Positions 12,001 to 15,000 of a stretch of 64,000 bases of DNA are shown in pieces; the first letter of the stretch is position 1, and each line of letters opens with the position of its first letter. The stretch lies in NCBI RefSeq assembly GCF_055900595.2, contig NZ_CM148325.1; one strand, 5' to 3'. The position numbers are program-made.

Positions 12001-15000
12001 CACAAGCGGGCGCTAACGTCCACGTAATTGATGTTGGTATTGATACTGCTGAGCCTATCCCCGGGCTTATCAACATGCGTGTCGCACGAGGTAGCGGCAA
12101 TATTGCTTCAGCTCCGGCAATGAGTCGCCGTCAGGCTGAAAAGTTACTTTTGGACGTCATATGTTATACGCGGGAGCTGGCAAAAAACGGTGTCACGCTG
12201 TTTGGTGTAGGTGAACTGGGGATGGCAAACACGACACCGGCAGCAGCAATAGTCAGCACAATCACTGGCCGGGATCCTGAAGAAGTGGTTGGGATTGGCG
12301 CAAACCTGCCGACAGATAAACTGGCTAATAAAATTGATGTTGTGCGCCGGGCGATTACGTTGAATCAGCCAAATCCGCAGGATGGCGTTAATGTTCTGGC
12401 AAAAGTGGGTGGATTTGATTTGGTCGGAATGGCTGGCGTGATGTTAGGCGCTGCTTCCTGCGGTTTACCCGTGTTGCTGGATGGATTTCTTTCTTATGCT
12501 GCTGCGCTCGCAGCCTGCCAGATGTCTCCTGCAATCAAACCGTATCTCATTCCTTCTCACCTGTCGGCAGAAAAAGGGGCGCGTATAGCGCTGTCGCATT
12601 TGGGGCTGGAGCCTTTTCTCAATATGGATATGCGTTTAGGTGAGGGGAGTGGCGCAGCTCTGGCGATGCCCATCATCGAAGCTGCTTGTGCGATATACAA
12701 CAACATGGGCGAACTTGCTGCCAGTAAAATTGTTCTACCGGGGAATACGACTTCTGATTTGAACAGTTAAAAACGAAAAGTCTGATAAAAGCTATACTTA
12801 ACCGATAGCTTTCGCGACTTAGGAAAGGGACATGATGCGTCGTGTAAATATTCTTTGCTCATTTGCTCTGCTTTTTGCCAGCCATACTAGCCTGGCGGTA
12901 ACTTATCCATTACCTCCAGAGGGTAGCCGTTTAGTGGGGCAGTCGCTTACTGTAACTGTTCCTGATCACAATACCCAGCCGCTGGAGACTTTTGCCGCAC
13001 AATACGGGCAAGGGTTAAGTAACATGCTGGAAGCGAATCCGGGCGCTGATGTCTTCTTACCGAAGTCAGGTTCGCAACTCACCATTCCGCAGCAACTGAT
13101 TTTGCCCGCCACTGTTCGTAAAGGGATTGTGGTTAACGTCGCTGAGATGCGTCTTTATTACTACCCACCAGACAGTAATACTGTGGAAGTCTTTCCTATT
13201 GGTATCGGCCAGGCTGGGCGAGAAACCCCGCGTAACTGGGTGACTACCGTTGAACGTAAACAAGAAGCACCAACCTGGACGCCAACGCCGAACACCCGGC
13301 GCGAATATGCGAAACGAGGGGAGAGTTTGCCCGCATTTGTTCCTGCGGGGCCCGATAATCCCATGGGGCTGTACGCGATTTATATTGGCAGGCTATATGC
13401 CATCCACGGTACCAATGCCAATTTTGGTATTGGGCTCCGGGTAAGTCAGGGCTGTATTCGTCTGCGCAATGACGATATCAAATATCTGTTTGATAATGTT
13501 CCTGTAGGTACTCGTGTGCAAATTATTGATCAGCCAGTGAAATACACAACGGAACCGGATGGTTCAAAGTGGCTGGAAGTTCATGAGCCGCTGTCGCGCA
13601 ATCGTGCTGAATATGAGTCTGACCGAAAAGTGCCATTGCCGGTAACCCCATCTTTGCGGGCGTTTATCAACGGGCAAGAAGTTGATGTGAATCGCGCAAA
13701 TGCTGCGTTGCAACGTCGATCGGGAATGCCTGTGCAAATTAGTTCTGGTTCAAGACAGATGTTTTAAGAGCGTTGGTAATTAGAAAGCAAAAAGCCTGCT
13801 AGAAAGCAGGCTTTTTTGAATTTGGCTCCTCTGACTGGACTCGAACCAGTGACATACGGATTAACAGTCCGCCGTTCTACCGACTGAACTACAGAGGAAT
13901 CGTGTGAACGGGGCGCATATTAATGGCAGTGCATGGTGATGTCAAAGGGTGAAATGCATTTTTTTGTTTGTTTGCTGTCAATTTCAACAAAGTGATGAGA
14001 TTTCAATCTTATTGGTAATGAACCATCGTGGTGCATACCCTCCTTTTATAGGGCAGGGGAACGCGACTGCTGGTGAAAAGAGCCAATGACGAATCTATCA
14101 TAATCTCTTATTTGACAGTTGGTTAGCTTGTACATCAACGCCAAAATAAAACTGGCAAGCATCTTGCAATCTGGTTGTAAGTAATGGCGGCACTTGGGCC
14201 GATTCTCAAAAACCGGAGGCAACATGAACTTCAGACGCCTGAAATACTTCGTAAAAATTGTAGATATTGGTAGCCTGACTCAGGCTGCTGAAGTATTGCA
14301 TATCGCACAACCAGCGCTCAGCCAGCAGGTTGCCACACTCGAAGGTGAGTTAAATCAACAACTTTTGATTCGCACAAAACGGGGCGTTACGCCAACAGAC
14401 GCCGGAAAAATTCTCTATACCCATGCGCGGGCCATTTTACGTCAGTGTGAGCAGGCCCAACTCGCGGTGCATAACGTTGGTCAGGCATTATCGGGGCAAG
14501 TCTCGATTGGCTTTGCGCCAGGAACCGCTGCGTCATCCATCACCATGCCCTTATTACAGGCGGTTCGCGCTGAATTCCCGGAGGTCGTTATCTATCTTCA
14601 TGAAAATAGCGGTGCAGTGCTTAACGAAAAACTGATAAATCACCAACTCGATATGGCGGTGATTTATGAGCATTCCCCTGTGGCTGGTGTATCCAGTCAG
14701 GCTTTGCTGAAAGAAGATCTTTTCCTGGTAGGAACTCAAGATTGCCCGGGGCAAAGCGTTGATGTTAATGCTATTGCACAAATGAACCTTTTTCTCCCCA
14801 GTGATTACAGCGCTGTTAGACTTCGTGTTGATGAGGCGTTTTCCCTACGGCGGCTCACGGCAAAAGTCATTGGTGAAATTGAGTCTATTGCTACGCTTAC
14901 CGCAGCGATTGCCAGCGGCATGGGCGTTGCAGTATTACCCGAATCGGCCGCGCGTTCGTTATGTGGCGCAGTAAATGGGTGGATGTCACGCATTACCACG

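What the first reader, a model, noticed from the sequence alone, without database searches (positions are those of the whole stretch)
14153..14168. Sigma-54-type promoter upstream of nac
TGGCAagcatctTGCA has the -24 GG and -12 GC with canonical spacing, about 55 bp upstream of the nac start, consistent with the known NtrC/sigma-54 dependence of nac. Listed for completeness.
Basis: partly seen in the sequence, partly recalled or inferred. Interest (0 to 1): 0.2.

Follow-up and report, generated by a model that had tools for sequence, protein, structure and literature searches.

The report
Known sigma-54 promoter of nac

Summary
The sequence TGGCAAGCATCTTGCA is at 14153-14168 (+), 55 nt before the ATG at 14224. 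The gene it precedes is nac (NCBIfam NAC equivalog, 600 bits). The window is E. coli chromosome: cobT-ldtA-asnV-nac-cbl.

[quoted passage not shown] That site is marked experimentally confirmed in EcoCyc. nac mRNA falls 4.2-fold in an rpoN deletion, and NtrC ChIP-seq and gSELEX place NtrC in this spacer.

My own tests agree:
- The site is the best hit in the window to a PWM built from 41 other ChIP-bound sites (17.5 bits).
- A one-mismatch NtrC palindrome lies at -152. It is the only match in the 64 kb with fewer than three mismatches.
- In 80 of 80 nac loci from more than 20 enterobacterial genera, TGGCA-N6-TTGCA is invariant while the spacer and flanks vary.

The motif alone would not beat chance. 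Position, enhancer, conservation and published occupancy do.

Verdict: observation confirmed, interpretation supported, already known, low interest.

Side observations:
- A Fis-like palindrome at -71 of the divergent tRNA-Asn promoter.
- A weakly supported hairpin in the nac 5'UTR.
- The yersiniabactin island further along the window.

The parts
14152..14168 (+). Sigma-54 promoter element of nac, CTGGCAAGCATCTTGCA. GG is at -25/-24 (14154-14155) and GC at -13/-12 (14166-14167).
   Evidence: Sequence read. Top PWM hit of the window, 17.5 bits. Identical to ChIP-seq site OS19 of PMC4591121 and to the nac promoter in Table 1 of PMC2831329. The TGGCA-N6-TTGCA core is invariant in 81 of 81 loci.
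14179..14179 (+). Predicted transcription start (+1) of nac, 12 nt after the C of the -12 GC, giving a 45-nt 5'UTR.
   Evidence: Inferred from the motif position. It matches the 'distance 45' between predicted start and nac ATG in PMC4591121 Table 1. It was not mapped here.
14019..14035 (.). Strong NtrC (NRI) enhancer site 1, TGAACCATCGTGGTGCA, centred at -152.
   Evidence: One mismatch to TGCACC-N5-GGTGCA, and the only match in the window with fewer than 3 mismatches. A corresponding palindrome lies at -150 to -153 in 72 of 81 loci and at -130/-131 or -140/-141 in the other 9. It is a conserved block in alignment A1. It is identical in K-12, where NtrC binds this spacer by gSELEX and ChIP-seq.
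14039..14055 (.). Probable weak second NtrC site. Its conserved right half-site is (T/A)GGGGCA (E. coli TAGGGCA), centred about -132, 20 bp from site 1.
   Evidence: Strongly conserved block ACCCCTnATGGGGCA in A1, with invariant C, G, GCA. It is present 19-20 bp from site 1 in 73 of 81 loci under a strict pattern. Assigning it to NtrC is an inference from the half-site match and the two-turn spacing.
14097..14111 (.). Nac-like site ATCATAATCTCTTAT (ATC-N9-TAT), centred at -75 between enhancer and promoter. It is the candidate site for Nac autorepression.
   Evidence: Conserved block ATCAnAATCTCTTAT in A1. AT[ACT]-N9-TA[TC] lies at -74 to -76 in 59 of 81 loci and is absent in 21. The published Nac ChIP-exo motif is ATAagnaaaanttAT (PMC9853098). 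The pattern is too degenerate to be significant on its own. The function is inferred.
14179..14223 (+). nac 5'UTR, with Shine-Dalgarno GGAGG at 14215-14219.
   Evidence: Sequence read. The AGGAGGCAAAATG block is conserved in A1.
14224..15141 (+). nac coding sequence (305 aa plus stop), a LysR-type nitrogen assimilation control protein.
   Evidence: ORF list (the true ATG is at 14224, inside the listed TTG-initiated ORF). NCBIfam NF008410, 600.5 bits. RefSeq annotation.

Best explanation
This is the sigma-54-dependent promoter of nac (nacp), in an E. coli strain whose control region is functionally identical to that of K-12.

Mechanism, from established knowledge of sigma-54 and NtrC promoters:
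- RNA polymerase carrying sigma-54 binds the -24 GG / -12 GC element (14152-14168) as a closed complex. It cannot open that complex by itself.
- Under nitrogen limitation, phosphorylated NtrC binds the enhancer about 150 bp upstream. The enhancer is a strong palindrome at 14019-14035 plus a weak half-site 20 bp downstream.
- NtrC oligomerises, contacts the polymerase by DNA looping, and uses ATP hydrolysis to open the promoter.
- Transcription then starts near 14179 and yields nac mRNA with a 45-nt leader.
- Nac probably feeds back through a Nac-like site at -75, between enhancer and promoter.

Shown here: the motif, its rank within the window, the enhancer site, the gene identity, and deep conservation of the architecture.

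Taken from papers: sigma-54 and NtrC occupancy, and rpoN dependence.

Inferred: the exact +1, the NtrC assignment of site 2, and the Nac site.
For: - Motif present at the stated coordinates with canonical spacing.
- Best hit in 64 kb to a leave-one-out PWM built from 41 ChIP-bound sigma-54 sites. It scores 17.5 bits, above the training median of 16.0.
- The downstream gene is nac.
- The NtrC consensus with one mismatch lies at -152 and is the only match in the window with fewer than 3 mismatches.
- Promoter, both NtrC blocks and the Nac-like block are base-for-base identical to K-12 MG1655. The differences fall between the blocks.
- In K-12 the identical 17-mer is a sigma-54 ChIP-seq site with FAT 24, marked confirmed in EcoCyc (PMC4591121).
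- nac mRNA is 4.2-fold lower in delta-rpoN (PMC2831329).
- NtrC ChIP-seq enrichment at nac-cbl is 59.6-fold in N-starved cells (PMC4066584).
- gSELEX peaks for RpoN holoenzyme, for NtrC, and for both together lie in the nac/asnV spacer (PMC8743547).
- nacp works as an NtrC-activated sigma-54 promoter in synthetic enhancer constructs (bioRxiv 10.1101/086108).
- nac is silent in ammonium and about 60-fold induced when glutamine is low (PMC10657418).
- In 80 of 80 nac orthologue loci from Escherichia, Citrobacter, Enterobacter, Klebsiella, Raoultella, Kluyvera, Kosakonia and others, TGGCA-N6-TTGCA is invariant. The six spacer bases and the flanks vary, and mean column identity is 60%.
- The enhancer distance changes only by about 11 or 22 bp, that is, whole helical turns.
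Against: - The motif alone is not statistically exceptional. 14.5% of random 64-kb sequences contain a PWM hit at least as good, and the simple pattern occurs about as often as expected.
- The transcription start was not mapped here, and the primary mapping papers could not be read.
- The published NtrC ChIP-seq interval sits over the promoter and gene start rather than over the -152 site. The same is true of other NtrC targets in that table, so it reflects resolution or looping.
- The -21 base is A rather than the consensus C (TGGCAA).
- The Nac-like site is missing in 21 of 81 loci.
Confidence: 0.97

Rival explanations
1. The GG-N10-GC match is a chance occurrence, and nac is transcribed from some other promoter such as a sigma-70 promoter in the same spacer.
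For: The simple pattern occurs at about the chance rate in the window. A random 64-kb sequence has a PWM hit at least as good 14.5% of the time. A weak sigma-70-like match, GTGAAA-17-TATCAT (9 of 12), lies at 14073-14101 on the + strand.
Against: The core is invariant in 81 of 81 loci, while the weak sigma-70-like match falls in a poorly conserved stretch. A matched NtrC enhancer is present. Sigma-54 ChIP-seq occupancy and rpoN dependence are published for the identical sequence.
Confidence: 0.01
2. The relevant feature is the small palindrome inside the motif, GCAAG-CAT-CTTGC. It would act as a hairpin terminator for minus-strand transcription or as a binding site for a dimeric protein, rather than as a sigma-54 element.
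For: The terminator scan flags GCAAGATGCTTGC followed by a T-rich tail on the - strand at 14167-14155. It has 5 pairs and a 3-nt loop.
Against: The palindrome is not conserved. Enterobacter-type promoters read TGGCATTCATATTGCA, which leaves only 3 complementary bases, yet TGGCA and TTGCA stay invariant. No minus-strand gene ends here. The stem is minimal.
Confidence: 0.01
3. It is a sigma-54 binding site that is occupied but not productive, like many of the intragenic or 'orphan' sites found by ChIP-seq.
For: PMC4591121 stresses that many sigma-54-bound sites may never give productive transcription.
Against: The site is intergenic, in sense orientation, and 45 nt from the nac ATG. It has an NtrC enhancer. 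nac expression depends on rpoN and on nitrogen status. PMC4591121 uses it as its positive control for a functional promoter.
Confidence: 0.01

Closest known systems
E. coli K-12 nac promoter (nacp; Muse & Bender 1998, as cited in PMC4591121; site OS19 in that paper's Table 1)
   Same: The 17-mer CTGGCAAGCATCTTGCA is identical. So are the NtrC site 1, the second conserved block, the Nac-like site, the distance to the ATG and the gene order asnV-nac-cbl.
   Different: Eleven single-base differences or indels occur in the 343 aligned columns. Most lie between the functional blocks, three lie just upstream of NtrC site 1, and one lies in the 5'UTR. The strain also carries the yersiniabactin island nearby, which K-12 lacks.
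Klebsiella aerogenes/pneumoniae nac promoter (Feng, Goss, Bender & Ninfa 1995, J Bacteriol 177:5523 and 5535; papers not readable here, recalled from my own knowledge)
   Same: The architecture matches in K. pneumoniae ATCC 13883 (L076). A sigma-54 element lies 58 nt (C of the -12 GC) from the ATG. An NtrC palindrome sits at -152 with a conserved adjacent GGGGCA half-site. An AT-N9-TAT type site lies between enhancer and promoter.
   Different: The spacer is AGCAAA instead of AGCATC. Site 1 reads TGCACCGTTGTAGTGCG. The flanking sequence is largely diverged.
Other NtrC-activated sigma-54 promoters of E. coli (glnAp2, glnK, glnHp2, astC)
   Same: All have a -24/-12 element plus upstream NtrC sites and are activated under nitrogen limitation.
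   Different: nac has TGGCAA rather than TGGCAC at -24 to -21. Its enhancer is weaker, with one good palindrome plus a half-site, so it fires only at high NtrC-P, like glnK (PMC10657418; PMC3870243).

Membership tests
Sigma-54 (-24/-12) promoter | GG and GC dinucleotides exactly 10 bp apart within a TGGCAC-N5-TTGCW-like element | tested here: met
   TGGCAAGCATCTTGCA at 14153-14168, with GG at 14154-14155 and GC at 14166-14167.
Sigma-54 (-24/-12) promoter | Score comparable to experimentally bound sites | tested here: met
   17.5 bits on a PWM built from 41 other ChIP-bound sites (training median 16.0). It is the best of about 128,000 positions in the window.
Sigma-54 (-24/-12) promoter | Upstream of a gene, in sense orientation, at a plausible distance | tested here: met
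   Intergenic, + strand, with predicted +1 45 nt from the nac ATG. The predicted leader is 43-49 nt in 79 of 81 loci.
Sigma-54 (-24/-12) promoter | Occupied by sigma-54 holoenzyme | not testable with these tools
   Published for the identical K-12 sequence: ChIP-seq FAT 24 (PMC4591121) and a gSELEX RpoN peak in the nac/asnV spacer (PMC8743547).
Sigma-54 (-24/-12) promoter | Transcription start about 12 nt downstream of the GC | not testable with these tools
   Only indirect support: EcoCyc status 'experimentally confirmed' as quoted in PMC4591121 Table 1. The primary papers are not held.
Sigma-54 (-24/-12) promoter | Expression requires rpoN | not testable with these tools
   Published: nac is 4.2-fold down in delta-rpoN (PMC2831329).
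NtrC-dependent (enhancer-activated) promoter | NtrC palindrome(s) TGCACC-N5-GGTGCA at least about 100 bp upstream | tested here: met
   One-mismatch site at 14019-14035 (-152), the only match in the window with fewer than 3 mismatches. A conserved half-site lies 20 bp downstream.
NtrC-dependent (enhancer-activated) promoter | NtrC binds and activates under nitrogen limitation | not testable with these tools
   Published: NtrC ChIP-seq 59.6-fold at nac-cbl (PMC4066584), an NtrC gSELEX peak, and about 60-fold induction at low glutamine (PMC10657418).
Functional regulatory element (any kind) | Purifying selection on the element relative to its flanks | tested here: met
   TGGCA and TTGCA are invariant in 81 of 81 loci from more than 20 genera. 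Spacer and flanks vary, with mean column identity of 60%.

The most novel reading that the evidence does not exclude
The 325-bp asnV-nac spacer may be a tightly packed, co-evolving bidirectional control region. A conserved Fis-type palindrome at -71 of the tRNA-Asn promoter (13974-13988) lies only 46 bp from the centre of the NtrC enhancer. Growth-rate control through Fis, or the DNA bending it causes, could therefore modulate NtrC looping to the nac promoter. A small 5'UTR hairpin (+10 to +23), kept by some compensatory changes, could add post-transcriptional control. None of this is excluded by my data, and none of it is shown.
Probability: 0.1. Interest if true: 0.3.

Novelty: already known. 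Interest (0 to 1): 0.05.

Why it matters
It matters little as a discovery. nacp is a textbook NtrC/sigma-54 promoter that couples the sigma-54 nitrogen response to sigma-70 genes through Nac.

The check still has three uses:
- It gives exact window coordinates for the whole control region: enhancer, likely Nac site, promoter, predicted start and ribosome-binding site.
- It shows that the architecture is conserved across more than 20 enterobacterial genera, including the helical phase of the enhancer. That gives a clean reference case for calibrating sigma-54 scans elsewhere.

Tried and rejected
- Simple pattern statistics and the PWM maximum test show that the motif alone does not exceed chance. 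I therefore did not rest the case on them.
- Primary papers on nac promoter mapping and reviews were not held: PubMed id 9495755, PMC107004, PMC135341, PMC2944532, PMC99035, PMC177360, PMC18977 and PMC3832199. The mapped start could not be read directly.
- ChIP-exo supplement tables of PMC9853098 are not held, so there are no base-resolution NtrC, Nac or RpoN coordinates.
- A broad literature search for 'nac promoter' was swamped by plant NAC transcription factors.
- ATA-N9-TAT as a Nac-site search is too degenerate: 272 matches with up to 1 mismatch. The Nac-site call therefore rests on position and conservation only.
- RNAalifold found no consensus structure in the 5'UTR. The E. coli leader folds no better than shuffles, z = 0.55. 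A hand-specified 5-bp helix shows modest support: 77% of cells paired against 26-38% in slid controls. I treat this as a side note only.
- Rfam has nothing in the promoter or leader. Only the tRNA passes its threshold.
- The terminator-like palindrome within the motif is rejected because it is not conserved.
- The conserved block at 13972-13992 was first considered as a third nac enhancer element. It is better explained as the -71 site of the divergent tRNA-Asn promoter.

Full report
**Observation**

The + strand reads aaaaCTGGCAAGCATCTTGCAatc, and TGGCAAGCATCTTGCA sits exactly at 14153-14168. GG is at 14154-14155 and GC at 14166-14167, which is the canonical -24/-12 spacing. The first in-frame ATG with a Shine-Dalgarno sequence (GGAGG, 14215-14219) is at 14224.

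The 305-aa product is Nac: NCBIfam equivalog NF008410, 600.5 bits against a cut-off of 309. The next gene is cbl.

A 701-bp stretch around the site matches 5,410 of 5,426 complete E. coli genomes over at least 80% of its length. It is annotated there as ldtA, tRNA-Asn and nac. In K-12 MG1655 the order is cobT-ldtA-asnV-nac-cbl-asnU-yeeO. The window is E. coli chromosome, in the reverse orientation to the K-12 numbering.

**Is it more than chance?**

By pattern counting alone it is not.
- TGGCA-N7-TGCA occurs twice in the window against 1.1 expected.
- TGG-N9-TGC occurs 61 times against 52 expected.

I built a position weight matrix from the 41 other intergenic sense sigma-54 ChIP-seq sites in Table 1 of PMC4591121, leaving nac out, and scanned both strands.
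- The nac site is the top hit of the whole window at 17.5 bits. The next best scores 14.7.
- It lies above the median of the bound training sites, 16.0.
- Even so, 14.5% of simulated 64-kb sequences contain a hit at least as good.

The case therefore rests on context, conservation and published experiments.

**Context**

TGCACC-N5-GGTGCA with one mismatch (TGAACCATCGTGGTGCA) lies at 14019-14035. Every other match in 64 kb has three mismatches.

If +1 is placed 12 nt after the C of the GC, at 14179, this palindrome is centred at -152.

The promoter scan finds nothing competitive on the + strand. There is only a 9/12 sigma-70-like match at 14073-14101. It does clearly find the divergent tRNA-Asn promoter on the - strand, TTGACA-17-TAATAT.

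**Comparison with K-12 and with published data**

The region from the tRNA to the nac start is 98% identical to MG1655. The sigma-54 element, both upstream conserved blocks and the Nac-like block are all identical. Most substitutions fall between the blocks.

Published results for that identical sequence:
- PMC4591121 Table 1 lists site OS19 with motif CTGGCAAGCATCTTGCA and downstream gene nac. Occupancy is FAT 24 (fold above threshold, the paper's occupancy score). The predicted start is 45 bp from the gene start. EcoCyc status is 'C', experimentally confirmed. The motif-centre-to-ATG distance of 64 equals 14160 to 14224 here.
- The same paper uses the nac promoter as its positive control for nitrogen-limitation induction.
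- PMC2831329 Table 1 lists aaacTGGCAAGCATCTTGCAATctgg at -71 to -54 from the nac start, among 18 known sigma-54 promoters. nac is 4.2-fold lower in an rpoN deletion.
- PMC4066584 reports 59.6-fold NtrC ChIP-seq enrichment at nac-cbl in N-starved cells. This is the fourth strongest of 21 peaks.
- PMC8743547 finds gSELEX peaks for RpoN holoenzyme, for NtrC, and for both together in the nac/asnV spacer.
- nacp functions as an NtrC-activated sigma-54 promoter in synthetic enhancer constructs (bioRxiv 10.1101/086108).
- nac is silent in ammonium and about 60-fold induced when glutamine falls. It is described there as having a weaker enhancer than glnAp2 (PMC10657418).

**Phylogenetic footprint (new computation)**

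A scan of species-representative genomes with the Nac protein returned 80 loci at 80-99% protein identity. They come from Escherichia, Citrobacter, Enterobacter, Lelliottia, Klebsiella, Raoultella, Kluyvera, Kosakonia, Pluralibacter, Phytobacter, Siccibacter, Leclercia and others.

- **Sigma-54 element.** In all 80, plus the window, the best sigma-54 PWM hit upstream of nac is the orthologous element. The core TGGCA-N6-TTGCA is invariant in 81 of 81. The six intervening bases vary (AGCATC, TTCATA, CCCATA, AGCAAA, AAGTTA and others). Flanking columns average 60% identity.
- **Leader length.** The predicted leader is 43-49 nt in 79 loci and 36 nt in 2.
- **NtrC site 1.** The NtrC-like palindrome is centred at -150 to -153 in 72 loci. 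It is at -130/-131 in 7 (the Kluyvera group) and at -140/-141 in 2 (Pseudocitrobacter). The natural deletions are therefore about 22 and 11 bp, whole helical turns, as expected for a looping enhancer.
- **Probable NtrC site 2.** A second, very strongly conserved block, ACCCCTnATGGGGCA (window 14041-14055), ends in a half-site resembling GGTGCA. It lies 19-20 bp from site 1 in at least 73 of 81 loci. I read it as the weak second NtrC site, which is an inference.
- **Nac-like site.** A third block, ATCAnAATCTCTTAT (window 14097-14111, centred at -75), fits the Nac motif ATA-N9-TAT (PMC9853098). It is found at -74 to -76 in 59 of 81 loci and is missing in 21. It is the likely Nac autorepression site. 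That is an inference, helped by my recollection of Feng et al. 1995, which I could not read.

**Mechanism**

Sigma-54 holoenzyme sits on 14152-14168 as a closed complex. NtrC-P assembles on 14019-14055 when glutamine is low. It then loops to the promoter and drives open-complex formation by ATP hydrolysis, and nac mRNA starts near 14179. Nac then feeds back between enhancer and promoter.

Occupancy and rpoN/NtrC dependence come from the papers cited above. The looping and ATPase steps are established knowledge for NtrC-class activators. The exact +1 in this strain is inferred.

**Rivals**

- *Chance match with another promoter driving nac.* This is contradicted by the invariance, the enhancer and the published genetics.
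- *The internal palindrome GCAAG-CAT-CTTGC as a minus-strand terminator or other protein site.* This is rejected because the palindrome disappears in Enterobacter-type promoters while the sigma-54 bases stay fixed.
- *Bound but unproductive site.* This is contradicted by nitrogen-regulated, rpoN-dependent nac expression.

**Things seen on the way**

- **Fis-like site of the tRNA-Asn promoter.** The conserved block at the far left of the alignment, TTGCTGACAATTTCAGCAA (window 13972-13992), is not obviously part of the nac enhancer. The divergent tRNA-Asn gene is conserved next to nac in 22 of the 23 loci checked. Its promoter is conserved too: TTGACA-17-TAATAT, then the GCGCCCC discriminator. 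The 15-bp inverted repeat lies at a fixed -71 from that promoter's predicted start. That is the classical position of Fis site I at stable-RNA promoters (my own knowledge).
- **nac leader hairpin.** The leader has a 4-5-bp hairpin (14188-14191 with 14198-14201). The corresponding helix is paired in 77% of sequence-pair cells, against 26-38% for slid controls, with some double changes. RNAalifold predicts nothing, and the fold is no more stable than shuffles.
- **Rfam.** It has no family in the promoter or leader.
- **Altered weak sigma-54 site in ldtA.** The weak intragenic sigma-54 ChIP site in K-12 erfK/ldtA (IA16, CTGGTCGATAATTTGCA) reads CTGATCAATAATTTGCA in this strain. The -24 GG is lost.
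- **Yersiniabactin island.** Positions 18131-43000 carry the yersiniabactin high-pathogenicity island beside the tRNA-Asn genes.

**Verdict**

This is the already known nac sigma-54 promoter with its NtrC enhancer.

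Noticed in passing
window 13910-13988 (- strand promoter); repeat at 13974-13988: The divergent tRNA-Asn (asnV) promoter is TTGACA (13945-13940), a 17-nt spacer, TAATAT (13922-13917), then a GCGCCCC discriminator. 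It is conserved across genera. A 15-bp inverted repeat (consensus GCTGAAATTGTCAGC) lies at a fixed -71 from its predicted start, the classical Fis site I position. This explains the conserved block upstream of the nac enhancer.
   Followed up: partly
window 14188-14201 (nac 5'UTR, +10 to +23): A small hairpin, CGGC-N6-GCCG in E. coli and GCCAG-N8-CTGGC in most other genera. It is paired in 77% of cells against 26-38% for slid controls, with some double changes. RNAalifold predicts no consensus structure, and stability is no better than shuffles.
   Followed up: partly
L039, L047-L049, L059, L061, L064 (Kluyvera group) and L053, L056 (Pseudocitrobacter): Natural deletions between the NtrC enhancer and the sigma-54 promoter measure about 22 bp and about 11 bp. 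They move the enhancer from -152 to -130 or -140, whole helical turns. The Kluyvera deletion also removes most of the Nac-like site.
   Followed up: partly
window 13517-13533 (- strand, inside ldtA): The weak intragenic sigma-54 ChIP-seq site IA16 of K-12 (CTGGTCGATAATTTGCA, FAT 1) reads CTGATCAATAATTTGCA in this strain. The -24 GG is changed to GA, so the site is probably lost here.
   Followed up: partly
window 18131-43000 and beyond, between tRNA-Asn genes at 18055-18130 and 58155-58230: The yersiniabactin high-pathogenicity island (irp1, fyuA, ybtE and others) lies next to the tRNA-Asn cluster. It is present over at least 80% of this stretch in 2,061 of 5,426 complete E. coli genomes.
   Followed up: partly
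window 13789-13816: A 12-bp-stem hairpin with A/T runs on both sides lies between the end of ldtA (13767, + strand) and the end of asnV (13823, - strand). It is a likely bidirectional intrinsic terminator. Several Rfam leader and sRNA models hit it below threshold.
   Followed up: no
window 47989-48005 (-), 10832-10848 (+), 11201-11217 (+), 16544-16560 (+): These are the next-best sigma-54 PWM hits in the window, 13.8-14.7 bits (for example CTGGCACGCCTTTAGCA). All have an imperfect -12 element, and all score within the range expected by chance.
   Followed up: no
L054 (CACSKA010000001.1): A contig labelled 'Chryseobacterium sp. 18061' carries an enterobacterial nac locus. It shows 82% protein identity and a Kosakonia-type promoter, CTGGCAAGCATATTGCA. 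The record is probably mislabelled or contaminated.
   Followed up: no
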